Below the pieces are notes generated by a model. It was not told where the DNA came from, did not search any database, and was given only the letters and a program-made list of their open reading frames with translations. Source: a virus. Taken from it: a stretch of 64,000 bases of DNA. This document shows, piece after piece, positions 5,469 to 60,875 of this stretch. Within the stretch, counting starts at the first letter, position 1, and the number at the start of each line of letters is the position of its first letter. Position numbers and translations under genes: made by a program. The stretch is taken from IMG/VR virus record IMGVR_UViG_3300002026_002465, positions 113,949 through 177,948 of that record; one strand, 5' to 3'.

Positions 5469-5469
5469 C

Positions 5470-5526: not shown

Positions 5527-5572
5527 GTATAAATATAGTCTTATAAAAATAAGTACTACTAAGGAGGATATA

Positions 5573-16600: not shown

Positions 16601-19600
16601 TGGACTTGGAAGAGATCCAGGACAAAACCACTTAGCAATAAAAGAGGAATTTACTCTTTCATTTGGTGATGATCTAAAAGACAAGAATTCTTATCATGGA
16701 AAGTATTTTACGTTATCAACACCAATTGAAAATTATTGTGTTTATTATACAGTAAATGGTGTAGATGTTGATCTCGTATTAAATGAAGTGCTTGATACTT
16801 ATCAGAAAATACGAATCGATATTGGTTCTGATGTTGGTGGTCTTGATCAAAGATCAACAATCATGACTCAAACAAAAAATGTTCTTAGAGCTCAAGTATC
16901 AGGTTTTGTAGATAGCTCTATTTCAATCCAAGGTAATGTTATGAGCTTTTCAATTCCAGAAGGAAAAACAAGAGCAATATCAACTACTGGTAGTTTTAGT
17001 GATGATATAACTTATACAAGAATTACAATTGGAATGAATACACAGACTAAAACATATCAAGGCGCAGGACTTGGATATGTTATTGCAATATCAGAAAATG
17101 ATAGTGCTAACGCCATTACAGTTGCAACTCAAAGTGTAATTAATAATACTGGTAAATATGATATTGTTGCTAATACAAATATATTAACAATAACAAATAA
17201 AGTTGTTGGCAAGTGTAGTGTTTTTGAAAGTAATACTGGGTTTACAATAATAAGTGTTATTGGTGGTGTAAATTCAACAACAAATCCAAATATATTAAAT
17301 TCTATAGGTGTTGAGATTGATATAACAGATACGTTAAATGCTGTTGGAGTTGCAAGTGCTGTGAATTCTGTTATTAATAACTTGAGTGATTTTAATTCAA
17401 CAATTTTAGTAGATACAACAAAAATAAAGATTGTAACAACAGATGATGAAAAGAACTTCGTAAATCCATCTATTGGAAATTTAGGAGAAACAACAACACT
17501 TGATATTATAAATCATGGAAAGTTGCCATATGTTAAATTTACTAATACTGAAAATGGAGTTGTAACAACAAAGCCAACTTTCTCATTTAATGGAACATAT
17601 GAAATTACTCAAACTGGTATTTTTGCTAATACAGGTTTTGGAAACTTGATAACAATATTAAATCAAAAAACTTTAAATGATTTAACATGGTCAATTATTG
17701 GTGGAAAACTAAGAGCAACAACAGTATCACAAGGAGTTGAATCAACAATTGAAATAATAAATACTAATTTGACAAATGACTTAATAAAAGTTATTGGTTT
17801 TAATATTTCTCCAAAGGTTTATGGACTTCCTGTTGATGATGATTTGGAAACAGTTTTATATGAATTGAATAAGATTGATTCTAGAATACATTGGGAGTTT
17901 ATTACAAAAACAAATGGCAAGAAAGATATTAGAGCTATATTGACATATAAGGGTCAAGAGTCTTTAATAAAGTTTGAAGATACTGGTAATGTTCTTGATT
18001 TATTTACAAAACTTGGTGTTGTATATAATAATATAACTTCATTTGATGGATTCTCAAAAATAACATTATACAATCAATATCAAGCTGAAGAATTAGTCAA
18101 GCAAGTCTTTTCAAAATTAAGACAAGAAAAAAAAACTGATATAGATTGTAATATAAGAAATCAAAAATTAATTATATTTACTGATGATTTTATTACTAAT
18201 ACTATTACTGTTGACTTTAAAAATGATTATGCAAAACTTTTCCCAGCAAGAAATCAAATTACAAGTGTTACAGCTGTTGTTGGAAATAAAAACCATGGTG
18301 TTTGGAATGTTAATTTAACAAATATTACTCCTGTTGATGATACAGTTTCATATAACTATGATAAAGAATATAATAAATATTCTGAAAATTCATTGGTTGT
18401 TGAAAAGAAATCTAGTGATGCTTTAAACATTAATATATCACAATATATAATGTTAAAAAAAGAAACAGATTATACATTATCAACTTATGTTTATTCAGAA
18501 GATTATCTCTCATCAAATAATATTAAATTTAAGTTTACAAATGAAGAACTTGATTGGGATAATATTGAAAGACTTGATGGTAACTGGTGGAGATTAGTAT
18601 ACTCATTTAAAAATGAATATGCTGGACAATATCATATTGGTCTTGTTGTTATAAAAACAAATAGAATGTATATTGATGCTGTTCAATTTGAAGAAAATAA
18701 ATTTATGACTCCGTTTGTGCTTAGTTCAAAAAATGATATTGGTAAGTTGGGAATAAATAAGTCATTATTAAATAAAAAAAGAGGAACATTATTCTTTAAG
18801 TTTAAACCTTATTTTGATTACTACAAACCAACTATTACTAATCCAAGGGTAATAATAAACATGCCTACAATAGATGATAATATTGTAGATCAATCTCTTG
18901 GTTTTAAAGTAATTTATTATTTTGATCCAATTAAAAATAGAGGAATATTTGAGTTTAGTATAAATAATGAAGATTCATCTTCTTGGAAGCTTGAAGCAAT
19001 AGAATCATTCTTTAATCAATGGCACTCTATTGGTTTTGTTTATGATTATATTAACGATAGATTTATTTATTGGTTTGATTATTTTAATAATATAATTGAC
19101 TCTCCATTTAATAATTATGAATGGGCAAATCTTTGGATTGGTCATAATGGACTTGATTCTTCTAGTATGTCAGCCGATATAGTTGTTAAAGATATAGTTA
19201 TACAAAATTATACAACAACAGACTCTGAAATTCTTAATTGGAATACAACATATGAATTCTTTAATACTTCACTTTTTAACTCAACAATACAAGAAGTTAA
19301 AAATGAGTTGTTAGGATTAAAACAAGGAACATTAAGTAACTCTGATTTATCTCTAGATTTACAAAATCAACTCGCTATTATTGAAAACAGAGTTGATGAA
19401 TATGACTCTAATGAAGTTGATAACTTGAACTATATTACAAAGTTATCAAGTTTCATAGGGTATCCAAAACCATTAAGTGATTCTTATTCTGAAATTCCTT
19501 CAGATCAAGGAAATCATGAAAACAGAATTAAAGGTGTTGAAATAACTACAACTTTCTTGAATGGAAAAAACAGTGTTTTTGAAGATAGATTAAATTATGC

Positions 19601-21209
19601 TCTATCAGAAGTAGATAATGTTAATAACTCTCTTGGAAATATTTTAGCTGAAATAAATACAGAGAAAAATACAAGATCTACAGAAGATCAAGCAATAAAA
19701 AATCTTTATGCTTCAACATCAATTAATAAAGGTGCTTCTCTTGTTGGTATATATGATGTTAATGGAAGATATTCAGCAATTAACGTTGAGGATATATTAC
19801 AAGAAATTGCAGGTGGTGGTAGAACAACTGAAAGCTTGAAATCATTAAAAGATGATATATCAAGTCTTGAATTATTGATTGGACAAAATGATGAAGATTT
19901 TGAATATATTAAAGATGGCAACACACAACTTTTAACAAGAGTATTATCTCAATCAGCTGGATATAATGTTTTTGATATAAAAAATGATTTAACTACATTA
20001 GAAAATGATGTTTCTCTTATTAGAGATAATAACAAAAAAGCAAAACTTTCTTCTCAAAAAATAATTGTTAATTTTACTGATAGTGGCTCATTTGTTCCAC
20101 TATTACCAGAAACAGTATATTCATTTATTGTTAATGGCAAAGAATTTAGTATAATAACACCAGAAGAAAATGTAACTTGGAATAGTTTAATTACAAACTT
20201 TTTACCAAATGCTACAAGTGCCGATAATGAGTTATTATCACTAAAACATAATATACTCAGAACATCAGATAATAATATTTCATTCAATATTCTAATTGAA
20301 AACAAGGCTGATATTGTAGAAGGTTTTACTGTTGATATACTTCCTGGAATAACAGAAATAGATTTGTTAATATCATTAAGTGCTGGTGTTGGTATTGCTA
20401 CAAGCACACAAATTAATTTTATACCTTTAACAATGAATAATGCTTCAATGTTTGAGAAAATTAATACAGAAATAACTGATAGACAAAATTCAATTTCTGC
20501 AATACGAAATGATCTAAGTAATGATACTTTAGTTGCTCCTGGAGCTTCATTAATTGGAATTAATTCTGCTGGTATATTTACATCAACAACAGTTCAACAA
20601 GCTCTAGAAGAAATTTCTGGCATAGAGAGAAACTCAAGTATGACAATAGCAGGAAACTATAATAACATTCAAGGTATGTTATCTAGTATATCTACATTAC
20701 AATCAAATGTTTCTAATTCTTCTTCAAACATTGTTGGTATTAAAGAAAATATACAATTAATGAAAGATGGTAATCTTGGAATAACTTGGGATGGCGTGCA
20801 AACAATAAAACCAAATCTTATGGATTTATCATCAAGACTTGGAATTGCTGAAGATGATATTATATCATCAAACACTGCAATTGGTGTTAATGCTCTTGGT
20901 CTTGCAAATACAAATCAAACATTAAACAATGTAAGTAATAATCTAACAACAGAAATTACAAATAGAGTAAATGGTGATAGTAATATCATGCAACAACTTG
21001 CAAGCTCTTCTGTTAATAAAGGTGCTTCTTTAATTGCTATACAAGATGTTGCTGGAAAATATACAGCAACAACAGTTGAAGGTGCTTTAGCAGAAGTTGA
21101 TACAAAGCTTGCAGCCTTAGCAGGTGCACTATCATGGCAATCTCCAGTTGCTAGTCTATTATTATTACCAACAACTGGAAATATAATAGGAAATGCAAGA
21201 ACAGTATAG
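7623..21209 (+). CDS. Giant virion fibre/adhesin protein, N-terminal 4,528 aa (CBM-like jelly rolls, beta-helix, LamG-like, repeats)
   Basis: TTG start; NLVKNGSFE...IDGVQLEE CBM-like modules; VFVDPIDGNDTNTG...AFKTVQRAL beta-helix opener; five KYFTL...YYVW-type repeats; GASL(V/I)...VExALxE fibre repeats. Confidence 0.8.
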   Translation: MSVIKRWSTGSIGNEYPDHKERNNPNTKGLSYEGSEIVGPGIEGYIEEDEVLASSDNRPLKNLVENDIILDKNISDVASEVDHGIFKNRYNEFKLDILTQDYLNDPEIQSTEFLTTLLRINSGSSIINGKVTRIGNQKILYFMRTTDSSIIFPDYENNTDSILIEINDDNYFNDYNVVYTTISDTLPNNFESYEVKITNKSTINTSVEDRVLIYKIYRDWEDITPLKADSKEAKNEIINFQNDINFGKTSDGYWLKSPTGLGDPIKGTFVTDVKIKKDIEIKDKFLEKDLFTINTTTGKKEYEIITDGIFFNDIQWFIADELIDKSADIQDIYVDENNNIYFIIRSKTSTQLYYKAATSTQLVAKPIRNVGEPNTISVNTRLKQIKNYLFVYGTNGFIRAVQLDSNNYIETPALVFSNIQTTQEITSIYVWNDQIWIAGENTLWHSNQTLSSISNYSTIFPTWTFTELKLNDVVKDLSGQPIVKKITTLERTKGNIIVDTAINTNIFNLVKNGSFEQGTPGQIPTNWNLTDDLSELNAELLSTFEMTQSSGSSNTDRWGNYKGILKLGSGVTRATVYQDFILEENSQNKIYNFSVFLKSGVPQGSTIKIAEYNSDNEIVTSIDSGLLNTSSESWVIDNTNVNTWIRPEIAFRIANNNSKYLRFSINCESASPLQIDGVQLEEINNSGIEITNITCAADIDGSLSGKYLLISSPLHNYYAWINVDMDLNGQGDSIDPKLLETFDGSGISKYPVLLNKTGIQVLISKNSHADVVAEKVAKAINFVSDLVAYRIQNTIQVQVSSEIPGQVADASIATLGSVGFFIDIVVQGLYKASQYIENYEYLFIGFEKFESNRTDQPFAFIDIANPTGPQAIKYVLGKYGNVMRINAAIHDDSNRMYVTDDKRIYTLTFLNNYNMYDRFTMVDISNKNSNELDFSSNIYKFETIAKFNNRIMFGGTVDNRVIKAKYGIDDKKDHTIEFVDALDGFKSFNSLFGETVFVHSNGIDNSTIEFKRTKSCYEKISTTSDSNIGYYEPGEFYTFKILIDGQEDKIIKILSPSWNKGPWTIQKIYEQIKSNYSGSLIDWLNPEGKESVVKTLDWTNPESSSIKTDGFYSIGKQDLTRHVRGNIHKIFIPANQNKTFYIIRGKQIFQSKFDPNVLKDDNGKYPGVIAPRGTVLSYDLLPKNLDATSINFVWFVQDKGYYKWTQDGWEEVQYYTKWDIYSEGIKLTKYKHINDIEKTFGDASNNKVWVDLPIEPGYNLLKGSVRVKTNFIAEVGFTEGEDYFIDYDNNKMIRSDTTNMLLNSEFSYADTYINLNNLDYKGEVSSTGSLPTVGVSIGDAYKVGSDYYRCKELPISGFSSWIKFSNEIVPLNWKYYAQNDTGFETILRKTRDAYDNRNDVAEFIVKSVSSGSEVGVLYQVVDIDYAQDVYTFSVDLKAYNYSKVIIRISECDNSNISSFGYNKLGNSFTDLVYKSSRLDYQIGNANNSTSVDSYDKWNRVVLSHELKDARTTKLRVEIYSLKNNQLYVDKAQLEKNASQTPFVETARLSRIDPNMHVWIDYVEYTTAIKGTDYKFDLATRKIKMIEDISDNEYFYFNYKYNKIFNPYDYGNSKPVAAVNYDPRDDYFILKSEGHIWAINQMFAMISLETEDPLLVSYNYHYPRVDQIKIRNQPDRFGNFIYVVKGEAAYDNPYKPNDIGSGYGINGSKQYYNGVDISEIEDSVNNDILYEINVVDNNYQINDIYDRRIYIDARDNLNYNISLLPETLAYFPFKKDFNSTNGLTPLNFIQNSKIIPIIKNYSILQLVEVGAWRNGYQLGLRTQFTYPGTSFSVFVDPIDGNDTNTGKSENSAFKTVQRALDGDALYSNSTDDYVTNIIITKPSTIKENIEINKPFTVSIVAKSYCYWVGSIQNLTECNIQGVWFKNTAIYPFNKISFYYCTFDNTSINCISPQNISLYNCEATNNHNPLLRVKNTLYPSPFKFPYMRMSERDDGIIGYPDSVATSNNESIAPGDVFNTPQLTASTYIFKNCLIYGSTDHIIKFDPSPAWTGSFGFDFCTIADNVGMFSTPKYNLSINYSNSIISNNREIISQTDDAIIKKVFNCNSSINFDTCYIDFPNKSDEEGSSNLWNNLSGELLGRESCIYSKNVGGSPQFLGDNDYHLKSIAKGSTTDSPVLDKGTGGIDLGCYTETRQQTEQNIPKKLKNYTAYIDEAIHYAMVINSEKITVTLEFKPSGTVTKSGILFDTRTSDDDVDYIVLAYNNNNDNDHNLEQSEGNLQSNPYRFRVIVANKEKSYSIISPIQITTDEEFQIWHRISFTINYEKIINTKPKYDEYNKIQNIIILYHNKQESIESFVKYDLSRYTSGELISGSGNDGFNSWNYNDITKYITIGADYKNTETLRMTGYYDELRIDNRFIDRKQFELWNVKKVQFNDPVAYVNQIPLTKSFNPRTLQEYWSLKDIYDVGSKGNKFLENTSKRMTYEDGYPAWFIGNTTNNIIENSNFSGNYNALLETESLVFDTPIVLTSNWHISTSGSRNTIDEAGFDITILDTSSPQYSDAAGYQDLGLNITDTTVTSSLGAKTFPFDVKINNTLYHKNLILQADPGYQELSLISGVANSLIVPGINPNGTEPEYNLNYKLYDSNNPTGIDKIIPLSISGVNEITHITTVGSLTELKNKYFTLSSTGDSHRYYVWYAQEEGTTNKPTLNSHDPAGQLQKIELTVTAPIPREQINSGKYEGKGFTIYDNAGVARNVYFDESSTLIPVVTMPPLWVGTDLTKVIRVSLTTTSANEGMLTPYIAEKIQEAINPVGQWTVTLNGSTLTIENKEKVSLSDVNLTIGNSSDLLSVNKITEGCAPIAGFDTRTGIMALISSTDDQDAILLKTKNAFTSAVNTDIMTAEKINGNVEEIEITFNSGVKNDYDSKYFTLTSNDQFGFSSNYYVWFNAGIDGDKQVTRVTCNADETLGGDPSKILNNKYFTLPTNSGENYFWYNANGLGRDPGQNHLAIKEEFTLSFGDDLKDKNSYHGKYFTLSTPIENYCVYYTVNGVDVDLVLNEVLDTYQKIRIDIGSDVGGLDQRSTIMTQTKNVLRAQVSGFVDSSISIQGNVMSFSIPEGKTRAISTTGSFSDDITYTRITIGMNTQTKTYQGAGLGYVIAISENDSANAITVATQSVINNTGKYDIVANTNILTITNKVVGKCSVFESNTGFTIISVIGGVNSTTNPNILNSIGVEIDITDTLNAVGVASAVNSVINNLSDFNSTILVDTTKIKIVTTDDEKNFVNPSIGNLGETTTLDIINHGKLPYVKFTNTENGVVTTKPTFSFNGTYEITQTGIFANTGFGNLITILNQKTLNDLTWSIIGGKLRATTVSQGVESTIEIINTNLTNDLIKVIGFNISPKVYGLPVDDDLETVLYELNKIDSRIHWEFITKTNGKKDIRAILTYKGQESLIKFEDTGNVLDLFTKLGVVYNNITSFDGFSKITLYNQYQAEELVKQVFSKLRQEKKTDIDCNIRNQKLIIFTDDFITNTITVDFKNDYAKLFPARNQITSVTAVVGNKNHGVWNVNLTNITPVDDTVSYNYDKEYNKYSENSLVVEKKSSDALNINISQYIMLKKETDYTLSTYVYSEDYLSSNNIKFKFTNEELDWDNIERLDGNWWRLVYSFKNEYAGQYHIGLVVIKTNRMYIDAVQFEENKFMTPFVLSSKNDIGKLGINKSLLNKKRGTLFFKFKPYFDYYKPTITNPRVIINMPTIDDNIVDQSLGFKVIYYFDPIKNRGIFEFSINNEDSSSWKLEAIESFFNQWHSIGFVYDYINDRFIYWFDYFNNIIDSPFNNYEWANLWIGHNGLDSSSMSADIVVKDIVIQNYTTTDSEILNWNTTYEFFNTSLFNSTIQEVKNELLGLKQGTLSNSDLSLDLQNQLAIIENRVDEYDSNEVDNLNYITKLSSFIGYPKPLSDSYSEIPSDQGNHENRIKGVEITTTFLNGKNSVFEDRLNYALSEVDNVNNSLGNILAEINTEKNTRSTEDQAIKNLYASTSINKGASLVGIYDVNGRYSAINVEDILQEIAGGGRTTESLKSLKDDISSLELLIGQNDEDFEYIKDGNTQLLTRVLSQSAGYNVFDIKNDLTTLENDVSLIRDNNKKAKLSSQKIIVNFTDSGSFVPLLPETVYSFIVNGKEFSIITPEENVTWNSLITNFLPNATSADNELLSLKHNILRTSDNNISFNILIENKADIVEGFTVDILPGITEIDLLISLSAGVGIATSTQINFIPLTMNNASMFEKINTEITDRQNSISAIRNDLSNDTLVAPGASLIGINSAGIFTSTTVQQALEEISGIERNSSMTIAGNYNNIQGMLSSISTLQSNVSNSSSNIVGIKENIQLMKDGNLGITWDGVQTIKPNLMDLSSRLGIAEDDIISSNTAIGVNALGLANTNQTLNNVSNNLTTEITNRVNGDSNIMQQLASSSVNKGASLIAIQDVAGKYTATTVEGALAEVDTKLAALAGALSWQSPVASLLLLPTTGNIIGNARTV

Positions 21210-41200: not shown

Positions 41201-41749
41201 ATGGCTTCGTCTAATGATCAGATTATACAGAACTTTGATAAAGAAACATGCAAAGAATTGTCAGTAGATATTTCAAAAACGGATAATAACATTATAATTG
41301 TGAGTTTAAAAGGATATATAGACACTTATAATACAACATTTCTTTTAAGTAAAATGAATATGGTTTTTAATAAAGGTTATTATAATATTATTATGAACCT
41401 TGCAGGTATAAATTATGTATCATCAACAGGTATAGGAGCCTTTACTTCATTCTTAAAAGAAGTAAATAAACAAGGTGGTGGTATTTGTTTAATGAATTTA
41501 CAATCAAAAGTTTATGAAGTTTTCCAACTCCTTGGATTTACATCATTTTTTACTATAGTAGATAGTATTGATCTTGCAACTGAAAAACTATTGGATAAAA
41601 AAATACACAAAGAGTCTAGTTTCCCAGCTGTGACAGAATGTCCAGTTTGTAATAAAATGCTTAAAATGATGAAAGCTGGCAAATTTAGGTGTTCTGAGTG
41701 TAAAACTATACTAAGAATAGATGATAATGCTAAGATGTTTTTAGTTTAG
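41201..41749 (+). CDS. STAS-domain anti-sigma-factor antagonist with C-terminal Zn ribbon (spirochaete type)
   Basis: LKGYIDTYN...NLAGINYVSSTGIG...VYEVFQLLGF STAS core with phospho-acceptor Ser; FP..TECPVC...AGKFRCSECKTIL. Confidence 0.85.
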   Translation: MASSNDQIIQNFDKETCKELSVDISKTDNNIIIVSLKGYIDTYNTTFLLSKMNMVFNKGYYNIIMNLAGINYVSSTGIGAFTSFLKEVNKQGGGICLMNLQSKVYEVFQLLGFTSFFTIVDSIDLATEKLLDKKIHKESSFPAVTECPVCNKMLKMMKAGKFRCSECKTILRIDDNAKMFLV

Positions 41750-42677: not shown

Positions 42678-43250
42678 ATGGCATTAAAATTTAATATTGA
42701 GAAATTCATTTTCATTATGAAAAGCAACTCTTTGTGGGGTGTTTTTTTAAGTAATACTACTACAAATTCAGTTCCGGCGTGTATAGCATTACACACTTAT
42801 CTAAAATTATTAGATCTATTTAATAGTGATTTAATATCAGAGTCTGATTTTACAAAAATACCAAATATAAAATTAATTAGAGATTGTTCTCGTCAAGACA
42901 TATATGATGAAAATGATCATATCATAGATAATGATGTAATGAGTCTAAAACTTGCAAAAGAGTTACTTGAGGCTCTAGTTAGTCTTGGGTTTATTAATGA
43001 AAAAGAAACTCACAACCCTGAAAACACATGTCATACCCATCTTTCATGTTGTAGTTACCATATTAGTGATACAGGAGTATTATTATATAAAGAAATAGAT
43101 GAATGTTTTTCAGGCGTTGATAGTGAAGTTATTATCTTAAAGATACTATTACTTTTACCTTCGTGCAAGTTATTTAGTAAAGGAATTTATCAATCTGAAT
43201 TTGCAAAAGTATATTTAGATTTTTTATATTATGGAGGCAAACATGTCTGA
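42678..43250 (+). CDS. Hypothetical protein (Cys/His patch)
   Basis: 190-aa ORF; TCHTHLSCCSYH. Confidence 0.55.
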   Translation: MALKFNIEKFIFIMKSNSLWGVFLSNTTTNSVPACIALHTYLKLLDLFNSDLISESDFTKIPNIKLIRDCSRQDIYDENDHIIDNDVMSLKLAKELLEALVSLGFINEKETHNPENTCHTHLSCCSYHISDTGVLLYKEIDECFSGVDSEVIILKILLLLPSCKLFSKGIYQSEFAKVYLDFLYYGGKHV

Positions 43251-43914
43251 GCTCAACGATTTATATGAAAGCATCAGGCCTCAAATTGAACAGAAATATG
43301 AAACATTTCAAACTGTTTGGGGTCTAGGTGATGCTGAAATTTTTCCTGAATTAGTTTTTTGTTTATGCACTCCACAAACAAATGCTAAACATGGTTGGAA
43401 AGCTGCTCAAGCGCTTATTGAATCAGGGCTTTTATATGAACCAATAAACGGTGTTATAGAAGAACAACAGCGACTCATCCAAGTAGGAGAAATTTTATCT
43501 AAAGCAGGAGTTAGATTTAAAAAGAATAAGGCAAAATATATTGTTCAAGCTATTCAACGTTTTAATAATGGAAATGCCTTTAAAATATTTTTGACAAATC
43601 TTATTAAAAAAAGTAATAATATGAGAGATGTTAGAAATTGGTTGGCTGAAAATGTTTATGGTATGGGTATGAAAGAAGCTAGTCATTTTCTTAGAAATGT
43701 TGGGCAGGGTGATGAAGTATGTATTCTTGATAGGCATATATTAAGAAACCTTGTTGAGAATGGTGTTATTGAAAAAATACCACAACATTTAAATAAAAAA
43801 ACATATCTTGAAATAGAAACTGAAATGATAAAGTTTTCAAAGGAAGTTGATATTCCTTTATTCGCTCTTGACTTTGTATTTTGGTATAATGCAAAAGGTG
43901 AACTTTTTAAATAA
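43243..43914 (+). CDS. ogg: 8-oxoguanine DNA glycosylase / N-glycosylase-DNA lyase (OGG2/archaeal-Thermotoga type, HhH)
   Basis: ELVFCLCTPQT, GVRF, VYGMGMKEASHFLRNVG...ILDRHILR, YLEIE, LDFVFW; catalytic Lys and Asp present. Confidence 0.85.
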   Translation: MSELNDLYESIRPQIEQKYETFQTVWGLGDAEIFPELVFCLCTPQTNAKHGWKAAQALIESGLLYEPINGVIEEQQRLIQVGEILSKAGVRFKKNKAKYIVQAIQRFNNGNAFKIFLTNLIKKSNNMRDVRNWLAENVYGMGMKEASHFLRNVGQGDEVCILDRHILRNLVENGVIEKIPQHLNKKTYLEIETEMIKFSKEVDIPLFALDFVFWYNAKGELFK

Positions 43915-43924
43915 GGAAGTTGTG

Positions 43925-44944
43925 ATGGATTTGAATTTGGTGTTTGAGAAAGAAATTGAAAAAAGAATGGGTGAATATAGAGTCAAGAATGAAGAGTTAA
44001 CACTCACCATTAATAATTTGACCCAAGAAGTAAAAAGACTCAAAAGTTTAGAAAATTGTAATTTGTCAAATGAGGCTAGGAAATTAGTTACAATTCATAC
44101 TATAAAAAATTTAATTTCTTTTGAGCCAACATTTAGTGGATATATTGAAAACAAAGAAGCTCAAGGTATGAGAGAATCTCCTGAATGGTTTAATTATTTA
44201 ATTGAATATTGGAATGATAGAAACTCTCTCCTTGATTTCTTTAATTTTTTTGGTATTGAATTTTCTCCATGGGCGAGAACTATGAAAATGCCTCATGAAT
44301 GGAATGAAGAAGAGTTGATACTTTTTTTAAAGAATATAGAAATACAATATGTTTGTAATGGTGATTTGTTTGAAAAAAATTTAGGATGGTGGTATAAAGA
44401 ACAAGCACATCTTAAAGATGCCTTTTCAAACCCCAAGAATATGATTACACATAGGTCATATACTGAGATTCCATGGCAGTTTGTTTTTGAAAACCCACTA
44501 TGGACAAGTGATGTTGTTTTTGATGAACTTGTAAAAACAATTGAAAGTGGAAAACAACATTTTATTTCTTTATTAAGGATTGTTAATTATCATAAATTTG
44601 ATGAGGTTAAAATCAAAAAACTTGTCAAGGCTTGTGTTGTTATTAATAAAAAAGTAGGGTATAGTGAAGTAAGAAATTTCATTTCACGTAATATACCAAG
44701 TATTCAGATTAATAAAAGTGAAAAAGATTTACTTGAATATTTAACATGTGAACCTCCTAATGCTAATTCTTGTTCAATTGTTCATGAATTTTATATTGAA
44801 AAGATTGCTGATTTTGTTGCAAAAATTTCTTATATTGAAAAATGTAATAAACTAACTAAAATAGAAAAGGCTAATCTTGTTAAAAAATATGTTCTTGAAA
44901 AATACAGCAATGTAATTGTTGCAAAGGAATTGTTAGAAGAGTAA
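43925..44944 (+). CDS. Hypothetical protein (C-terminal AKELL)
   Basis: Start after SD AAGGA; N-terminal coiled coil. Confidence 0.6.
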   Translation: MDLNLVFEKEIEKRMGEYRVKNEELTLTINNLTQEVKRLKSLENCNLSNEARKLVTIHTIKNLISFEPTFSGYIENKEAQGMRESPEWFNYLIEYWNDRNSLLDFFNFFGIEFSPWARTMKMPHEWNEEELILFLKNIEIQYVCNGDLFEKNLGWWYKEQAHLKDAFSNPKNMITHRSYTEIPWQFVFENPLWTSDVVFDELVKTIESGKQHFISLLRIVNYHKFDEVKIKKLVKACVVINKKVGYSEVRNFISRNIPSIQINKSEKDLLEYLTCEPPNANSCSIVHEFYIEKIADFVAKISYIEKCNKLTKIEKANLVKKYVLEKYSNVIVAKELLEE

Positions 44945-44967
44945 ATTTACAGAGGAGAGTTGTTTAA

Positions 44968-45159
44968 ATGGATATTCTTAAATTTATGTTTAGTAATTTT
45001 TGGGTTTTTATTGGTTTTATTATATTGATAGAAGCTATAACGTCATTTATAGTTAACTTTATTAAAGCTTTTATTCCTGATACTCATTATCATATTGATG
45101 GAACGAAAGTTGATATTGATGAATTTATCAAATGGAAAGAGGTAAAAGATGATAAATAG
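44968..45159 (+). CDS. Small membrane protein
   Basis: Hydrophobic FWVFIGFIILIEAITSFIVNFI; SD GAGGAG. Confidence 0.55.
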   Translation: MDILKFMFSNFWVFIGFIILIEAITSFIVNFIKAFIPDTHYHIDGTKVDIDEFIKWKEVKDDK

Positions 45160-45340
45160 ATTCCAAACAAAGTTCATGAGTGAAGTAGCTAAACTGGGTC
45201 TTGAACATGGATTTTTAATTACAGAAGATGGATATATTGAACCAATTCTTGATTGGTTTGATAGCAATCAAGTATTTCATTATACCTTGAAAGAAGATGC
45301 TATTGGTGTAAAAATAAATGGAGTGGAGTCAGGTGTTTAA
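45149..45340 (+). CDS. Hypothetical protein
   Basis: 63-aa coupled ORF, SD GAGG. Confidence 0.5.
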   Translation: MINRFQTKFMSEVAKLGLEHGFLITEDGYIEPILDWFDSNQVFHYTLKEDAIGVKINGVESGV

Positions 45341-45713
45341 TAAAGATGATTTATTTCTTATTTGTGATGATGGTTTTGATTTTTCTTATAAAGAAAGAAC
45401 AAGTAGTTTTACATCTGTAGTTCATAAAACAAATTTCCTCCCTGATAATTATCTCAAATATATGGAAATAACAGATGTTATAAAATATAAAACTAAAAGA
45501 ACATACAAATGTCATTTCTTTATGGAAAATAAATCTGTTACTAATGGATTGTGGGGCATTAATAGTGAAGATGATTATCCAGATTATAACAAAGGTTTAT
45601 ACAAAACATTATCTGATAAAATAATCAAATCAAAAATAGAAAATAAGATTATTACACCTTGTAAATGGAGTGATTTAGCAAAGGAAGAACTGGTAAAAGA
45701 AAATGATACCTAA
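45318..45713 (+). CDS. Hypothetical protein (C-terminal AKEEL)
   Basis: 131-aa ORF; exact start uncertain. Confidence 0.5.
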   Translation: MEWSQVFNKDDLFLICDDGFDFSYKERTSSFTSVVHKTNFLPDNYLKYMEITDVIKYKTKRTYKCHFFMENKSVTNGLWGINSEDDYPDYNKGLYKTLSDKIIKSKIENKIITPCKWSDLAKEELVKENDT

Positions 45714-45993
45714 GGCTAAAACAATTATTGTCTATAAATCAAAATATTTTCGTATCGGGCAAAAAGTACAACCATCTTGTTTTGTATTCTTGAAGACAAG
45801 AAAAAAGACTCCAAAGTCTTATGAATATCAAGCAGAGTTTTGGGACTGGAATTATGAATTTAATAAAAGTGAAAGAACTATATCTCTTTTTTTTATAAAA
45901 TCTCTTTTCCAACACCGTGAAGCTAAATATTTTGATGGTAGTGTAGAAGACTTTGATGCTTATATAGCTAAAGAGTTGTTATTAAATGAATGA
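45703..45993 (+). CDS. Hypothetical protein (C-terminal AKELL)
   Basis: 96-aa ORF. Confidence 0.55.
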   Translation: MIPKAKTIIVYKSKYFRIGQKVQPSCFVFLKTRKKTPKSYEYQAEFWDWNYEFNKSERTISLFFIKSLFQHREAKYFDGSVEDFDAYIAKELLLNE

Positions 45994-46053
45994 ATTTTGC
46001 ATAGTTTAATAATGAAAAACAATTTTTATGCTCATTAGATAAGGAGATATCTA

Positions 46054-46650
46054 ATGAAATACTATTATGATAATGTTGAATATGAAGACTGGTGGAGTTT
46101 AATAGAAAAATGTTATTATCATGGAACTAGTTTAATAGCTCATAATGAAAATGATATTCTTTCAGTTTATAACCGTGGAAGATTTAAGCTCGTTCCATCA
46201 AAATTAACTTATGAAGAAGAGATTGTTGAAAAGGTAAAAAATCTTTTATTAGGGAATCAGACTCTTTATAGCCTTAGAAAAAGAGATGTTTTTAAAAGAT
46301 ATAAACAGGTTTTTGATGAGAATGGTCAAGTTGTAAATCTTGCTGAGATTTATCAAGCAATCGCCGATTTTAATCCTGATATTAAAAGATGTAAAAAAAC
46401 TGTTCATTTCTATGGCAATGAATATAGAAGAGAGCCCTGTCCATGGAGAGGAAAACGCCATCATTGTTCAATAAGAGGAAAATTAAACTTAAATTATTAT
46501 TTAGATGCCACAAGTCATTATAGTGATTTTAGGATAAAAAAGCAACTTTCTGCAAGAATGGACCCTAAGTGGAAGTATGATTATTCAGACAATCATGATT
46601 TTTCATGGAAAAGGCAGACAAAAAAGAGAAAACAATGGCTAAAACAATAG
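46054..46650 (+). CDS. Hypothetical basic protein
   Basis: SD AAGGAG; C-terminal SWKRQTKKRKQW. Confidence 0.6.
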   Translation: MKYYYDNVEYEDWWSLIEKCYYHGTSLIAHNENDILSVYNRGRFKLVPSKLTYEEEIVEKVKNLLLGNQTLYSLRKRDVFKRYKQVFDENGQVVNLAEIYQAIADFNPDIKRCKKTVHFYGNEYRREPCPWRGKRHHCSIRGKLNLNYYLDATSHYSDFRIKKQLSARMDPKWKYDYSDNHDFSWKRQTKKRKQWLKQ

Positions 46651-46679
46651 TTTAGAGAACTGATAGAGAGGTGTATAAT
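46651..46679 (+). promoter_or_regulatory. sigma70-like promoter TTTAGA-N17-TATAAT
   Basis: ATG 46686 lies 6 nt after the -10 box. Confidence 0.6.
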
Positions 46680-46685
46680 ATGGAT

Positions 46686-48404
46686 ATGACTAATAAATGG
46701 AATACTTTAAAGCATAACGGACCGGTTTTCCCGCCTGAATATACATTCAAAGGTTTGAATGTTATAGTTGGTGGAGCAAAATCTAAACTCTCTCCTGATG
46801 CAGAAGAGCTTGTTTATGCATGGGCTCAAAAGCATGCAACTCCTTATGTTAAAGATTCTGTTTTCCAGAAAAACTTCTGGTCATGTCTTAAACCCCTCCT
46901 TGACACTTCTCTCCAAGCAACTAAATTCCCTGCAGATTGGGATTTTAGTGAGTTTGTTGTTGAAATTGAAAACCTCAAAGAATCTAAAAAGGCTAAAACC
47001 TCTGCAGAGAAAAAGGCAGAGAAAGAAAAATCAGAAGCAAGAAAAGCTATCTATGGTTTTGCAGAACTTGATGGTGAAAAAACACCCCTTGGTAATTACA
47101 TGGTCGAGCCTCCAGGGCTTTTTATGGGGCGTGGAAAGCACCCCAAAAGAGGTTTTTGGAAGGCTCGCATTGCTCCTGAAGATATCATAATCAATCATTC
47201 TCTTTCTCTCAACCCTCCTTCTCCTCCTGCTGGACATAAATGGAAGGCTGTTGAAGAAAATAAAAACTCTCTCTTTACTGTTGGATGGAATTGCAAACTC
47301 ACGGGCAAATTTAAGCCTGTTCTTTTCTCTGCCATCTCTTCTGTTTCTCATAAATCAGCAATGAAAAAATTTACCAAAGCCATTGAACTTGCAAATAACT
47401 TTGATAAGGTAAATGCTTATATTGAAAAGAAACTTTCATCTCGTGATAAATCTACCAGAAAAGAAGCAACTGTTTGTGAGCTTATATCAAAAATGTCTAT
47501 TCGTGTTGGTGATGAAAAGGGTGAAGATGAGGCTGATACTGTCGGTGCCACCACTCTTCGAGTTGAACATGTTAAAATAGATAATACCTCAGTCATCTTT
47601 GATTTCCTTGGAAAGGACAGTGTTCGCTATTACAATAAAGTTGATAACCTCGACATCAATGCAATTCGTAATATTCAGGAATTTATGACTGGCAAGAAAG
47701 CAAGTGAAGAAATTTTTGATGGTATTACAAGCCATGATGTCAATCTTTTCCTTGATGGTATTATTGATGGTCTTACTGCAAAACAGTTCAGAACAGCTAC
47801 TGGTTCAACTTTACTTGCCAAGGCTCTTCAGAATCAGACAATTGACCCTTCTCTTTCTGAAAGAAAAAAGCTTGAATATTATACTAATGCTAATCTTGAA
47901 GTTGCTATAAAGTTGAATCATCAGACTGCAGTTTCAGAAGCCTATGAAAACTCTATCAAAAATATGAAGGATAAACTTGACCTTTACAAAAAAGAATATG
48001 CTTCTAAAAACAAGGATATCAAAAAAGAAATTGATACTCTTAAAGATGAAATGGAAAAAAGAGTTGAATTTGCTAAAGAAAACTATACTGGTGAAAAACA
48101 AAAGAATAGTATTCAGCGTGCTAAAGAAAACTTTAAAAAGAAGCAGGATACTTTGAATAAGCGAGTTGCAACTCTTTCCTCCCATATTGAAGATCTTGAA
48201 TCTAAAATTGATATGAAGAAAAAGACTAGGGGTATTGCTCTTGGAACGAGTAAGTTGAATTATTCAGACCCAAGAATTGGTATCAGCTGGTGCAAGGATA
48301 ATGGTGTTGATATTAAGAGGCTTTACACTCCAGCCCTTCAGGCAAGATTTGCTTGGGCAGTTGAAGTTAAAGATAATTTCTATAAAAAATACCCAATTGT
48401 ATGA
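46686..48404 (+). CDS. top1: DNA topoisomerase IB, long eukaryote/archaeal type
   Basis: KWNTLKHNGPVFPP, EPPGLFMGRGKHPKRG, IRVGDEK, FDFLGKDSVRY, AKQFRT, LNHQ, coiled-coil linker, LGTSKLNYSDPRI; full R-K-R-H-Y catalytic set. Confidence 0.92.
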   Translation: MTNKWNTLKHNGPVFPPEYTFKGLNVIVGGAKSKLSPDAEELVYAWAQKHATPYVKDSVFQKNFWSCLKPLLDTSLQATKFPADWDFSEFVVEIENLKESKKAKTSAEKKAEKEKSEARKAIYGFAELDGEKTPLGNYMVEPPGLFMGRGKHPKRGFWKARIAPEDIIINHSLSLNPPSPPAGHKWKAVEENKNSLFTVGWNCKLTGKFKPVLFSAISSVSHKSAMKKFTKAIELANNFDKVNAYIEKKLSSRDKSTRKEATVCELISKMSIRVGDEKGEDEADTVGATTLRVEHVKIDNTSVIFDFLGKDSVRYYNKVDNLDINAIRNIQEFMTGKKASEEIFDGITSHDVNLFLDGIIDGLTAKQFRTATGSTLLAKALQNQTIDPSLSERKKLEYYTNANLEVAIKLNHQTAVSEAYENSIKNMKDKLDLYKKEYASKNKDIKKEIDTLKDEMEKRVEFAKENYTGEKQKNSIQRAKENFKKKQDTLNKRVATLSSHIEDLESKIDMKKKTRGIALGTSKLNYSDPRIGISWCKDNGVDIKRLYTPALQARFAWAVEVKDNFYKKYPIV

Positions 48405-48667
48405 CACCTGAAATTAAAGTTGGAGATATTTTTTCATATAGAAATCAACCAAAGTGGGTTATATATGATGAGATATTTTTCATTGTTCTTGATGTTAATA
48501 TTGATGTTTATAGATCAAGAATTGTTATGAGAAATAAACAAAAATTAAATATTGGTGAAATAGCAGAGATAAGATTGTCTGATCAAGATATTGATCATAT
48601 TAGTTTTGATCCTTATATTATTACTGATCAAGCCTTGAAGGCTAAAATACTTTTATTATTGGAGTGA
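48401..48667 (+). CDS. Hypothetical protein (C-terminal AKILL)
   Basis: 88-aa coupled ORF. Confidence 0.55.
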   Translation: MTPEIKVGDIFSYRNQPKWVIYDEIFFIVLDVNIDVYRSRIVMRNKQKLNIGEIAEIRLSDQDIDHISFDPYIITDQALKAKILLLLE

Positions 48668-48939
48668 TTATGATTGGAAAACTATTTCAGGTAACTATTC
48701 CACCTGCTGTGTTTGATGGTGCTGATATGATAAGAGTTATTGATGCTAAAAATTATGCTCCTAAAGAAGGAGAGAAAAACGATTTATTTCTTGTATGTCG
48801 TGTTAGTAAAGATGGACAGTTCGTAAATGAGCAGGATATAAAGATGGATGATTTTTGTGATCTATTAACTGGTGGGATATTGATAAGGCCAGAACCTCAT
48901 ATTGAGGCAAAGATATTATTGACTGGAAACAAGGTGTAA
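48664..48939 (+). CDS. Hypothetical protein (C-terminal AKILL)
   Basis: 91-aa coupled ORF. Confidence 0.55.
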   Translation: MIMIGKLFQVTIPPAVFDGADMIRVIDAKNYAPKEGEKNDLFLVCRVSKDGQFVNEQDIKMDDFCDLLTGGILIRPEPHIEAKILLTGNKV

Positions 48940-48940
48940 A

Positions 48941-49318
48941 ATGTCAAGCTCTTTTAGTGGTGAAGCAAGAAGGTGTTATATCTGTGGTGAGTTATTAAAA
49001 ACAGATGATAGAGCTTTCATGCTTCAAGGTGCTAAAATTAAATATGGTGAAGATCCTATTTATGTATGGAAATCAGGAGGTTCAAATTTTATTTCACATG
49101 CTGGTTGCCAACAAGAAATATTGTGGAAACAATTTAATAATAATTTAACCTTAGAAAAGGAATACTATCCATTTATTCGGCTTTCTTGGAAAGATAATAA
49201 AAGACGATGGAGACTTGGAAACAAGTATCTTAAAGAAAATTGTAGTCAGGAGGAATTAGATAACTTAGTTGCTGTTCTTGCAAAGGATTTATTAAACGAT
49301 AAAATAACGGGGTTTTAA
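48941..49318 (+). CDS. Hypothetical protein with CxxC (C-terminal AKDLL)
   Basis: RCYICG...H.GC. Confidence 0.55.
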   Translation: MSSSFSGEARRCYICGELLKTDDRAFMLQGAKIKYGEDPIYVWKSGGSNFISHAGCQQEILWKQFNNNLTLEKEYYPFIRLSWKDNKRRWRLGNKYLKENCSQEELDNLVAVLAKDLLNDKITGF

Positions 49319-49648
49319 ATGTTTGGATTTAAAAAGGAGAAAAAGATGACATCTTTTGATGAAAAATTTGTTGAAAATAACAAAAATGCTCTAATGGAAG
49401 AAATGGCTGAAAAAATCAACAGTATTAACGAGCTATTAAGTGCTATTATTCAAGCAGGTCCAACAGAAAATCCTGTTCATGAATTATCTATTATGAAAAA
49501 TGTAACAATTGCAATTGCTCAGCATGTTGGAGCTTTGACAAGTTGTTTTAATCAATATACTATTTTTGAAACTGGTAGAGTTCCAAAAGAGAGGTTAATT
49601 GGTTTTAAGGCAATGATAGATAATGATGATGATGAAAAAGAAAAGTAA
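49319..49648 (+). CDS. Hypothetical protein
   Basis: 109-aa ORF. Confidence 0.55.
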   Translation: MFGFKKEKKMTSFDEKFVENNKNALMEEMAEKINSINELLSAIIQAGPTENPVHELSIMKNVTIAIAQHVGALTSCFNQYTIFETGRVPKERLIGFKAMIDNDDDEKEK

Positions 49649-60329: not shown

Positions 60330-60875
60330 ATGAAAAAGATTATTATTCCATTATTAGCCTTTTCTTTGTTATCATGTTCAAACAAAATAGAGGTAGTAGC
60401 AGATCCAGCAATTAAAAAGCCAGCTATAGTAGCAGAAGTTATAGAACCAGTTGACAATGTATTAAAACTCCCCATGGATTTTTCTTCACCACTTGTTAAA
60501 TATAATATATCAAGCAAGTTTGGTTATAGAAAAAAACCCATGGGTGGAAGTGATTTTGATTTACATAAAGGGGTTGATTTAGTAGGACCTAAAAATGCTT
60601 TGGTTTATGCGGCAAAAGATGGCAAAGTTATAGTTCATTATCCACCTCCAAACGGACATTTTAAAGGGCATCCTATTTATGGTGGAATGATGTTAATTGA
60701 TCATGGAGGGGGCATATATACCTTATATGGTCATTTTAAAAGAACATTTGTAGGTGAAGGTCAAAGAGTAAAAAGAGGCCAAGAAATAGGTGTTCAAGGG
60801 AATACTGGAATATCAACTGGGGACCATGTTCATTTTGAGATATTAATAGATCCAACAATCTATTTTAAGGAATAA
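60330..60875 (+). CDS. M23 family peptidoglycan endopeptidase with lipoprotein signal (candidate endolysin)
   Basis: ISSKFGYR...HKGVDL, YGH, GNTGISTGDHVHFEI; signal MKKIIIPLLAFSLLSC. Confidence 0.85.
   Translation: MKKIIIPLLAFSLLSCSNKIEVVADPAIKKPAIVAEVIEPVDNVLKLPMDFSSPLVKYNISSKFGYRKKPMGGSDFDLHKGVDLVGPKNALVYAAKDGKVIVHYPPPNGHFKGHPIYGGMMLIDHGGGIYTLYGHFKRTFVGEGQRVKRGQEIGVQGNTGISTGDHVHFEILIDPTIYFKE

What the first reader, a model, noticed from the sequence alone, without database searches (positions are those of the whole stretch)
46686..48404. Long eukaryote/archaeal-type topoisomerase IB encoded by a bacteriophage
Seen: an N-terminal core motif (KWNTLKHNGPVFPP, EPPGLF.GRG.HPK.G), the full catalytic set (Arg 47502, Lys 47613, Arg 47790, His 47919, Tyr 48261) and a coiled-coil linker of about 100 aa before GTSKLNYSDPR. 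Known: this architecture belongs to eukaryotic Top1 and thaumarchaeal TopIB, whereas bacterial and poxviral TopIB are short and lack these parts. Inference: a phage of a peptidoglycan-containing host carries the long form, implying cross-domain transfer or an unrecognised phage lineage of Top1. It has its own promoter and appears leaderless.
Basis: partly seen in the sequence, partly recalled or inferred. Interest (0 to 1): 0.82.

Follow-up and report, generated by a model that had tools for sequence, protein, structure and literature searches.

The report
Eukaryote-type topoisomerase IB in huge phages
A very large T4-like virus of bacteria carries a complete, apparently active copy of the DNA-relaxing enzyme topoisomerase I in the long form known from eukaryotes, some archaea and giant viruses; it belongs to a separate, undescribed phage branch of that family, which bears on how huge phages handle DNA twisting and on where the eukaryotic enzyme came from.

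Summary
Window 46686-48404 (+) encodes a 572-aa long-form type IB topoisomerase. All three Pfam TOP1 domains match (E 1e-61, 1e-61, 1e-24). The catalytic set R273, K310, R369, H412, Y526 is intact. A high-confidence model lies on human TOP1 at TM 0.86 and shows a two-helix linker of about 96 aa.

The record is a fragment of a roughly 390-kb T4-like bacteriophage. It is collinear with a 388-kb relative that has the T4 capsid, portal and terminase, and the gene sits at the same place there.

About 60 close relatives (50-73% identity) and further deep clades occur on phage contigs of up to 732 kb. No cultured phage in GenBank and no PHROG family has this form.

In trees, archaea (100/100) and eukaryotes plus giant viruses (100/99) each exclude the phage sequences. 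Nesting the phage sequences inside either is rejected (AU 1.6e-4 and 1e-41). The root is unresolved.

A promoter class, TTTAGA-N17-TATAAT, occurs 18 times against 1.1 expected. It ends six bases before the ATG and is conserved in orthologues, so the leaderless reading holds.

No other topoisomerase was detected in the complete relative.

This scan had already found the same lineage on other DNA (e1-5467233, e1-5467249).

The parts
46651..46679 (+). Sigma-70-type promoter: -35 TTTAGA (46651-46656), 17-nt spacer, -10 TATAAT (46674-46679). The ATG at 46686 begins 6 nt after the -10 box, which implies a leaderless or near-leaderless mRNA.
   Evidence: Searches give the site. In one search, TTTAGA-N16-18-TATAAT occurs 18 times in the 178-kb record (1.1 expected), all on the coding strand, and 34 times in the 388-kb relative (2.7 expected). 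The version followed by ATG at 5-7 nt occurs 6 and 7 times (0.07 and 0.05 expected). In one search the same layout precedes the TopIB gene in L011, L012, L013, L009 and L010.
46686..48404 (+). Long-form type IB DNA topoisomerase gene (572 aa; stop codon at 48402-48404). In-frame alternative starts lie at ATG 46680 (the gene caller's 574-aa product, P0002) and GTG 46671.
46695..47324 (+). N-terminal DNA-clamping (CAP) region, Pfam Topoisom_I_N, residues 4-213. There is no charged N-terminal extension.
   Evidence: E 2.6e-61; the N-terminal extension is 0-7 aa in the phage rows and 114-307 aa in eukaryotes.
47337..48014 (+). Catalytic core, Pfam Topoisom_I, residues 218-443. It holds R273 (47502-47504), K310 (47613-47615), R369 (47790-47792) and H412 (47919-47921).
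47937..48224 (+). Linker: an antiparallel pair of long Lys/Glu-rich helices, residues 418-466 and 469-513.
   Evidence: model. His-to-Tyr spacing is 114 here and 106-114 in most phage rows, against a median of 65 in archaea, 70 in giant viruses and 91 in human.
48183..48380 (+). C-terminal domain, Pfam Topo_C_assoc, residues 500-565, with the active-site Tyr526 (48261-48263) in GTSKLNYSDPR.

Best explanation
The gene encodes an active type IB topoisomerase. It is a monomer that needs neither ATP nor Mg2+. It clamps duplex DNA between its CAP and catalytic lobes and nicks one strand through a 3'-phosphotyrosyl bond to Tyr526, with R273, K310, R369 and H412 as the catalytic set. The broken strand swivels under the drag of the long coiled-coil linker, and the enzyme then reseals the nick, so it relaxes both positive and negative supercoils. 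It is a native gene of a roughly 390-kb T4-like bacteriophage and has been vertically conserved in that lineage. It is transcribed from a host-type (sigma-70-like) early promoter as a leaderless mRNA. It most likely serves as the swivel for replication and transcription of the huge genome, in place of the T4-type topoisomerase II, which this lineage appears to lack. Evolutionarily it belongs to a phage-specific lineage of long TopIB that is as deep as the archaeal and eukaryote/giant-virus lineages. Shown: the architecture, residues, fold, synteny, phage and bacterial-host context, promoter motif and tree position. Inferred: enzyme activity, early timing, the swivel role and the replacement of topoisomerase II.
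For: Architecture, residues and fold. Contacts for camptothecin are kept (F146, G148, R149, D311, T521, N525 align with human F361, G363, R364, D533, T718, N722). Phage identity: rIIA at 1e-115, gp25 baseplate protein, and 135 ORFs collinear with the 388-kb G001. G001 has T4 Gp23 at 1.4e-71, the T4 portal at 5.8e-81, a DnaB-like helicase and a terminase. Bacterial host: an M23 peptidase, KdsA- and KdsB-like enzymes and a STAS protein, plus sigma-70-type promoters. Synteny of the gene: G001 and L008 share neighbours on both sides. More distant TopIB-bearing contigs are also phage. L171 has UvsY, UvsW, gp44, RNase H and an NAD ligase. L173 and its record G004 have the T4 portal at 7.5e-128. L172 has a UvsX-like recombinase. 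No type IIA or type IA topoisomerase was detected in G001, which CheckV rates 98% complete. PF00521, PF00204, PF01131 and T4 gp39 all gave nothing, while those three Pfam families were found in 12, 12 and 14 of the 14 control genomes; the gp39 protein search has no control. Tree: archaea 100/100, eukaryotes plus NCLDV 100/99, and a 100/98 branch separates them from the phage rows. AU tests reject nesting with Nitrososphaerales (1.6e-4) and with red algae (1e-41), and do not reject a single phage clan (0.35).
Against: No activity or expression data exist, because the phage is uncultured. The gene's GC3 (0.265 against a mean of 0.147, 90th percentile) and its codon usage (93rd percentile) are somewhat atypical for the genome. 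'No other topoisomerase' rests on profile searches whose sensitivity is imperfect: the family B DNA polymerase profile also missed G001. The window's own record is only a fragment. The gene lies between late structural modules, so early timing rests on the promoter class alone; that class also precedes rIIA. A Shine-Dalgarno-like GAGAGG (46664-46669) 10 nt before ATG 46680 allows a conventional start on read-through transcripts.
Confidence: 0.85

Rival explanations
1. The enzyme is active, but its main job is host takeover rather than genome maintenance. Expressed early, it would relax the negatively supercoiled host chromosome and so shut down host transcription and replication.
For: It has an early-type promoter shared with rIIA. 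TopIB relaxes negative supercoils without any cofactor (established biochemistry). The phage carries many host-manipulation genes.
Against: In divergent relatives the gene sits among replication and recombination genes: UvsY, UvsW, the clamp loader, ligase, UvsX and DnaB. The apparent lack of any other phage topoisomerase argues for a housekeeping role. The two roles are not exclusive.
Confidence: 0.12
2. The gene is a recent horizontal acquisition from an archaeon, a eukaryote or a giant virus, not an old phage lineage.
For: The best solved-structure match by sequence is archaeal CsTOP1 (1.3e-102). The gene's GC3 and codon usage are in the upper tail of the genome.
Against: The nearest cellular homologues are only 36-41% identical, while phage homologues reach 50-73%. 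Archaea and eukaryotes plus NCLDV are each monophyletic and exclude the phage rows. AU tests reject nesting. The gene is syntenic across phages that have diverged to 35-80% protein identity.
Confidence: 0.03
3. The gene is an assembly chimera or a contaminant: a piece of archaeal or eukaryotic DNA joined into a phage contig.
For: The record comes from a metagenome. IMG/VR labels it 'provirus'.
Against: The same gene lies between the same neighbours in G001, and in L008 from a different sample. A genome-wide phage promoter motif abuts its start codon. The downstream gene overlaps its stop codon.
Confidence: 0.02
4. The carrier is not a bacteriophage but an archaeal virus or a giant virus of eukaryotes, where a long TopIB would be unremarkable.
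For: Long TopIB is common in giant-virus bins. The genome is AT-rich and very large.
Against: T4 hallmark genes are present: rIIA, gp25, and Gp23, portal and terminase in the collinear relative. The record also has a peptidoglycan M23 peptidase, CMP-KDO pathway enzymes and sigma-70-type promoters. FliM/FliN and OmpA genes occur in related contigs.
Confidence: 0.03

Closest known systems
Human nuclear DNA topoisomerase I (TOP1; PDB 1K4T, 1A36)
   Same: It has the same four-part core (CAP, catalytic core, coiled-coil linker, C-terminal Tyr domain) and the same catalytic pentad. The camptothecin-contact residues are kept. The model superposes at TM 0.86 with 34% identity. The linker is of eukaryote-like length or longer.
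   Different: There is no charged N-terminal extension of about 200 aa. The linker is about 96 aa against 77 aa. The gene is encoded by a bacteriophage and branches outside eukaryotes.
Archaeal TopIB / CsTOP1 of Caldiarchaeum subterraneum (PDB 6Z01; PMC4824112, PMC8748870)
   Same: It is the best match by sequence among solved structures (1.3e-102). Both lack the N-terminal extension and both are prokaryote-associated long forms. CsTOP1 was shown to relax DNA (PMC4824112).
   Different: The archaeal linker is short: 53 aa in CsTOP1 (PMC4824112), with a median His-Tyr spacing of 65 against 114 here. Archaeal sequences form their own 100/100 clade.
Long TopIB of giant viruses (IMG/VR GVMAG bins, and records of 1,259,197 and 617,453 bp whose lengths I recall as Megavirus chilensis and CroV)
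   Same: It is a virus-encoded long form with all the same domains.
   Different: Identity is 31-37%, and the linker is short (spacing about 70). These sequences cluster with eukaryotes, not with the phage clade.
'Phage-specific' TopIB of cultured jumbo phages (Lu11, PaBG, phiRSL1, RHEph12, PhiXhv-15; Iyer et al. 2021, PMC7824862) and PF01028-only genes of marine jumbo phages (PMC9123017)
   Same: These are phage-encoded tyrosine-recombinase-fold type IB topoisomerases.
   Different: They share only the catalytic core, at 22-30% identity over about a third of the protein. Their N-terminal 300-350 aa match no Topoisom_I_N profile, and they have no Topo_C_assoc domain. In the rooted tree they fall with the short bacterial forms.
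Short poxvirus and bacterial TopIB (vaccinia/variola 2H7F, Deinococcus 2F4Q)
   Same: The chemistry and catalytic residues are the same.
   Different: They are about 310-350 aa, have a different N-terminal domain and no linker. Foldseek gives TM 0.27-0.33 over the catalytic part only. A 98* branch separates them from the long forms.
T4 topoisomerase II (gp39, gp52, gp60)
   Same: It is the functional analogue: the phage-encoded enzyme that handles supercoiling during T4-type replication.
   Different: It is an unrelated, ATP-dependent type IIA enzyme. It was not detected in G000, G001 or the other TopIB-bearing records searched.

Membership tests
Long-form type IB topoisomerase (TOP1: Pfam PF02919 + PF01028 + PF14370) | N-terminal DNA-binding/CAP domain (Topoisom_I_N) | tested here: met
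   E 2.6e-61, 207 bits against a cut-off of 25, covering profile positions 2-212 of 213.
Long-form type IB topoisomerase (TOP1: Pfam PF02919 + PF01028 + PF14370) | Catalytic core domain (Topoisom_I) carrying Arg-Lys-Arg-His | tested here: met
   (3.5e-61). R273, K310, R369 and H412 align with human R488, K532, R590 and H632 and are invariant.
Long-form type IB topoisomerase (TOP1: Pfam PF02919 + PF01028 + PF14370) | C-terminal domain with the active-site tyrosine in the SKxNYxDPR motif | tested here: met
   (Topo_C_assoc, 2.9e-24). Y526 in GTSKLNYSDPR aligns with human Y723.
Long-form type IB topoisomerase (TOP1: Pfam PF02919 + PF01028 + PF14370) | Antiparallel coiled-coil linker between core and C-terminal domain | tested here: met
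   helices 418-466 and 469-513 at pLDDT of about 90; the full-length superposition on 1k4t includes the linker.
Long-form type IB topoisomerase (TOP1: Pfam PF02919 + PF01028 + PF14370) | Overall clamp fold | tested here: met
   Foldseek E 1.5e-46, TM 0.86, rmsd 3.4 A over 571 columns to human TOP1.
Long-form type IB topoisomerase (TOP1: Pfam PF02919 + PF01028 + PF14370) | Relaxation of positive and negative supercoils without ATP or Mg2+, through a 3'-phosphotyrosyl intermediate | not testable with these tools
   This needs purified protein and a plasmid relaxation and cleavage assay.
Eukaryotic nuclear TOP1 subgroup | Long charged N-terminal extension, and a position inside the eukaryote clade | tested here: not met
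   the extension is 0-7 aa against 114-307 aa; the protein lies outside the eukaryote/NCLDV clade, and nesting is rejected (AU 1e-41).
Archaeal (BAT/Thaumarchaeota-type) TopIB | A position inside the archaeal clade | tested here: not met
   archaea are 100/100 monophyletic without the phage rows. AU 1.6e-4 against grouping with Nitrososphaerales.
Short poxvirus/bacterial TopIB | Protein of about 300-350 aa with the short viral/bacterial N-terminal domain and no linker | tested here: not met
   the protein has 572 aa, a Topoisom_I_N domain and a linker, and is separated from the short forms by a 98* branch.
T4-like tailed bacteriophage (the carrier genome) | T4-type hallmark genes | tested here: met
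   In the record itself: rIIA at 1e-115 and gp25. In the collinear 388-kb G001: Gp23 capsid, T4 portal, DnaB-like helicase and terminase. The capsid and portal are not on the window's own fragment.

The most novel reading that the evidence does not exclude
The phage long TopIBs are a third primary lineage of TOP1, as old as the archaeal and eukaryotic ones. They span several deep clades in different huge-phage groups. In the unrooted tree they surround the node from which archaea and eukaryotes plus giant viruses emerge. If so, tailed bacteriophages could be the reservoir from which the long form entered Archaea and the eukaryotic stem, which would be a viral origin of TOP1. At the least they would give a new outgroup to polarise the archaea-eukaryote TOP1 relationship.
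Probability: 0.15. Interest if true: 0.85.

Novelty: new member of a known kind. Interest (0 to 1): 0.62.

Why it matters
Textbook and specialist accounts give the long TOP1 form to eukaryotes, certain archaea and giant viruses. They give only short or catalytic-core-only TopIB to bacteria, poxviruses and phages (PMC4824112, PMC8748870, PMC7824862). A broad and internally deep clade in huge bacteriophages changes that distribution, and it has three consequences.

- **Evolution.** It adds an independent lineage for rooting and for testing viral-origin ideas about eukaryotic topoisomerases.
- **Phage biology.** It suggests that some T4-like phages of about 400 kb swapped the ATP-dependent topoisomerase II for a cofactor-free swivel.
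- **Enzymology.** It offers small TOP1 enzymes without an N-terminal extension but with eukaryote-length linkers. Such enzymes could probably be expressed in bacteria and would suit work on linker function and on camptothecin-type inhibitors.

The promoter result also defines an early, partly leaderless promoter class for this uncultured phage group.

Tried and rejected
- **Conventional start at 46680.** I first favoured a Shine-Dalgarno-led start at ATG 46680, with GAGAGG 10 nt upstream. I dropped it as the main reading when orthologous loci kept TATAAT-N6/7-ATG but not the spacing to the purine tract.
- **Generic promoter scan.** The generic sigma-70 scan was not significant, with 23 sites against 17.3 expected. 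Only the specific motif is enriched.
- **Single-protein IMG/VR scan.** This scan found nothing because it chose low-complexity linker peptides as patterns. The alignment-based scans worked.
- **Rooting.** Rooting with short bacterial TopIBs and with the catalytic-core-only TopIBs of cultured phages left the base of the long forms as a polytomy. It also drew a long-branch warning, so no direction of transfer is claimed.
- **AU test.** treekit's AU test under the mixture model did not finish in two runs. I ran it with LG+G4 instead.
- The contexts of P0124, P0065, P0062, P0122 and the 556-member cluster P0192 are therefore unknown.
- **P0192.** This cluster has no close IMG/VR relative.
- **Second phage clade.** Records such as the complete 329-kb G314, which has terminal repeats, gave no T4 capsid or terminase Pfam hit. 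Their phage nature rests on a UvsX-like recombinase, a lysozyme-like gene and the IMG/VR classification.
- **Host from binning.** One relative is binned in a MAG labelled Gammaproteobacteria. The contig is itself a phage fragment, and the bin's taxonomic class has genomes of 0.7-1.8 Mb, so I did not use it to name a host.
- **Downstream 109-aa protein.** The atlas search gave nothing usable.
Full report
**The gene.** The + strand carries an open frame from 46671 to 48404, with ATG codons at 46680 and 46686. From 46686 it gives 572 residues. Pfam finds the three domains that define the long form of type IB topoisomerase, each nearly end to end:
- Topoisom_I_N at E 2.6e-61, residues 4-213.
- Topoisom_I at 3.5e-61, residues 218-443.
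- Topo_C_assoc at 2.9e-24, residues 500-565.

The best solved relatives by sequence are Caldiarchaeum CsTOP1 (6z01, 1.3e-102) and human TOP1 (1e-95). The short poxvirus and Deinococcus enzymes match the catalytic part only, at 1e-5 to 5e-7.

**Catalytic residues.** I mapped the active site through the printed alignment to 1nh3, whose chain position plus 202 gives the human residue number. R273, K310, R369, H412 and Y526 correspond to human R488, K532, R590, H632 and Y723. Residues that contact camptothecin in the human enzyme are also kept (F361, G363, R364, D533, T718, N722). The pentad is invariant in 29 clade members. Apart from one truncated phage-clade row with a gap at the Tyr column, it is also invariant in all 77 phage, archaeal, giant-virus and eukaryotic sequences aligned.

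**Structure.** An AlphaFold2 model built on the clade alignment has mean pLDDT 90.7 and pTM 0.82. Two long helices, 418-466 and 469-513, form the linker of about 96 residues. The whole model superposes on human TOP1 1k4t at TM 0.86 and rmsd 3.4 A over 571 columns.

**The carrier is a phage.** The window is the last 64 kb of a 177,948-bp IMG/VR record. That record encodes rIIA (PHROG 612, 1e-115) and tail-fibre and tail proteins. It also encodes a gp25 baseplate wedge protein.

I fetched the 388,268-bp IMG/VR record that holds the 65%-identical TopIB (G001, rated 98% complete by CheckV). 135 ORFs of the window's record have collinear best hits there, at 30-80% identity, running from about 340 kb to 151 kb of G001. 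The window's record is therefore a fragment, somewhat under half, of a genome of about 390 kb. The 'provirus' label and the 74% completeness estimate look wrong.

G001 has the T4 major capsid protein Gp23 (1.4e-71) and the T4 portal (5.8e-81). It also has a DnaB-type helicase (4.5e-21) and a large terminase (1.2e-11).

**The host is a bacterium.** The record has the following bacterial markers:
- a peptidoglycan M23 peptidase (window 60330-60872, 5.8e-24);
- KdsA-like (1.3e-43) and KdsB-like (9.4e-41) enzymes of the CMP-KDO route;
- a STAS-domain protein.

It also carries a strongly enriched sigma-70-type promoter motif, described below.

**The gene is not a join artefact.** The TopIB gene lies at the same place in G001, between the same conserved genes on both sides. 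The same holds in a 45.8-kb contig from another sample (L008), where 32 ORFs around it match.

The gene's GC (0.36) and GC3 (0.265 against a genome mean of 0.147) lie in the upper tail for this genome but inside its range.

**How widespread the gene is.**
- In the 5.8-billion-protein collection, about 60 clusters at 90% identity are 50-73% identical to it. All are 570-588 aa with the same three domains, on contigs of up to 732 kb.
- The 732-kb and 480-kb contigs show dense one-strand arrays of small genes typical of huge phages.
- More distant relatives also sit in T4-type replication and recombination neighbourhoods. At 43-49% identity, the neighbours include UvsY, UvsW, the gp44 clamp loader, RNase H, UvsX/RecA, an NAD ligase, OmpA, DnaB and tubulin, and that record has a T4 portal at 7.5e-128. 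At 38% identity, a 429-kb contig has a UvsX-like recombinase and a lysozyme-like gene.
- A second alignment-based scan found this further clade on IMG/VR records of 106-329 kb, one of them complete with terminal repeats. Those records gave no T4 capsid or terminase Pfam hit, so they are probably a different huge-phage group.

**What cultured phages have.** No record in the GenBank phage collection matches at E 1e-5 or better. At looser thresholds only the catalytic core aligns, at 22-30% identity, to the 'topoisomerase I' genes of Lu11, PaBG, Rhizobium and Xanthomonas jumbo phages and a Bacteroides phage. Those proteins have PF01028 only, with no Topoisom_I_N and no Topo_C_assoc. They are the 'phage-specific version' noted by Iyer et al. 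(PMC7824862), and the PF01028 genes of marine jumbo phages are of the same kind (PMC9123017). PHROGs has no family for the window's protein.

**Literature.** Eight full-text searches found no paper that describes a long TopIB in a bacteriophage. The specialist papers assign the long form to eukaryotes and certain archaea (PMC4824112, PMC8748870).

**Tree position.**
- Among one genome per prokaryote species, the similar sequences are archaeal, at 36-41% identity: Nitrososphaerota, Aenigmatarchaeota, Bathyarchaeia and Hadarchaeales. The exceptions are two short phage-like contigs binned into MAGs, one of which I confirmed to be a phage fragment.
- Giant-virus bins are 31-37% identical.
- In a careful maximum-likelihood tree (55 sequences, 557 columns, LG+C20 PMSF), archaea are monophyletic at 100/100 and eukaryotes plus giant viruses at 100/99. 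A 100/98 branch separates these two groups, together with one sequence of unknown context (P0124), from the remaining 23 phage-type sequences. The quick 77-sequence tree agrees.
- AU tests under LG+G4 reject placing the phage sequences with Nitrososphaerales (p 1.6e-4), with red algae (1e-41) and, marginally, with a divergent giant-virus group (0.024). They do not reject a single phage clan (0.35).
- Adding 34 further unlabelled representatives kept the same three-way structure and put seven more of them on the phage side.
- Rooting with short bacterial forms and the catalytic-core-only TopIBs of cultured phages separates long from short at 98*. It leaves the base of the long forms unresolved, with a long-branch warning. 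I therefore claim no direction of transfer.

**Linker length.** This is a clade trait. His-to-Tyr spacing is 106-114 in most phage sequences. It is 65 (median) in archaea, about 70 in giant viruses, 91 in human and 100-187 in the eukaryotes sampled. None of the phage proteins has the eukaryotic N-terminal extension.

**Expression signals.** Directly upstream lie TTTAGA (46651-46656), a 17-nt spacer and TATAAT (46674-46679), and the ATG at 46686 begins six bases later. A generic promoter scan is not informative in this AT-rich DNA (23 sites against 17.3 expected), but the specific motif is.
- TTTAGA-N16-18-TATAAT occurs 18 times in the record (1.1 expected from order-1 Markov simulations), always on the coding strand. 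It occurs 34 times in G001 (2.7 expected).
- The form followed by ATG at 5-7 nt occurs 6 and 7 times (0.07 and 0.05 expected).
- One copy precedes rIIA, an early gene in T4. Orthologous genes in the two phages keep the motif.
- The same -35, -10 and +7 ATG layout precedes the TopIB gene in five further phages whose intergenic sequences are otherwise diverged. Two of these have no ATG next to the TATAAT box.

It also argues for early rather than late expression. A conventional start at 46680 on read-through transcripts cannot be excluded.

**Likely role.** In G001, profile searches found no GyrA/ParC-type domain, no GyrB-type domain and no type IA topoisomerase, and a protein search with T4 gp39 found no relative. 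The three Pfam families were found in 12, 12 and 14 of the 14 control genomes; the gp39 search has no control. The complete 329-kb genome of the other clade also lacks a GyrA/ParC-type domain.

The TopIB therefore seems to be the only phage-encoded topoisomerase. I infer that it is the replication and transcription swivel of these huge genomes, in place of T4's topoisomerase II. This step is inference, and the searches are not perfectly sensitive: the family B polymerase profile also missed G001. Relaxing the host chromosome as a takeover device is a possible additional role.

**Earlier notes of this scan.** Two follow-ups on another genome (e1-5467233 and e1-5467249, a 388-kb sludge phage that is evidently G001 or a close relative) reached the same reading. 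My results were obtained independently and agree.

**Verdict.** The enzyme is a new, phage-specific member of a well-known family rather than a new kind of system.

Noticed in passing
window 43231-43914 (+): An 8-oxoguanine DNA glycosylase (Pfam Ogg-HhH, 1.6e-51) lies about 3 kb upstream of the TopIB gene. It keeps that position in G001, L008 and the MAG-binned fragment L091.
   Followed up: partly
window 49319-49648 (+): A 109-aa helical protein with no known family recurs a few genes downstream of TopIB in otherwise poorly syntenic phages (L008, L010, L012, L013), at 37-62% identity. It may be a partner of the enzyme. The atlas search gave nothing usable.
   Followed up: partly
whole record; in the window at 41745, 42643, 46651 and 58978: A phage promoter class, TTTAGA(G)-N16-18-TATAAT, often with TGG or TAG just before the -10 box. 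It is 16-fold enriched and occurs only on the coding strand. A subset has its ATG 6 nt after the -10 box, which implies leaderless mRNAs.
   Followed up: partly
window 7623-21209 (+): A giant ORF of 4528 aa. It is conserved at 57% identity over its full length as a 4755-aa ORF in the 388-kb relative.
   Followed up: no
window 43847-49318 (+): Several small proteins flanking TopIB end in an AK(E/I/D)LL-like tail (for example ...VAKELLEE...IAKELLLNE...KAKILLLLE...EAKILLTGNKV...LAKDLLNDKITGF). Another reader noted the same thing (e1-5856028).
   Followed up: no
record G000 as a whole: The IMG/VR 'provirus' label and CheckV's 74% completeness look wrong. The record is collinear with only about 190 kb of the 388-kb G001, and both of its ends carry phage genes.
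   Followed up: partly
L262:8001-10499: In one IMG/VR contig (91 kb) the TopIB match spans 2.5 kb instead of 1.7 kb. This suggests an insertion in the gene, such as an intein, an intron or a homing-endonuclease gene.
   Followed up: no
L091:3892-5603: The TopIB gene on the contig binned into a 'Gammaproteobacteria' MAG is split into two overlapping frames (3892-5406 and 5340-5603), so it is frameshifted or misassembled. The genomes sampled from that MAG's taxonomic class are only 0.7-1.8 Mb, which is odd for that label.
   Followed up: no
P0192; P0201/P0293: A 590-aa TopIB on the phage side of the tree stands for a 556-member cluster at 90% identity on contigs of up to 72 kb, so it is an abundant but unplaced carrier. 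A cluster labelled 'Chloroflexi bacterium' MAG falls inside the archaeal clade.
   Followed up: no
L010:1862-2828; L173:8887-9927: The 480-kb TopIB-bearing contig encodes FliM- and FliN-like proteins. The 119-kb T4-like contig encodes a tubulin directly upstream of its TopIB gene.
   Followed up: no
window 41201-41749 and 60330-60875 (+): A STAS-domain protein (1.3e-18) and an M23 peptidoglycan peptidase (5.8e-24) are encoded in the window.
   Followed up: no
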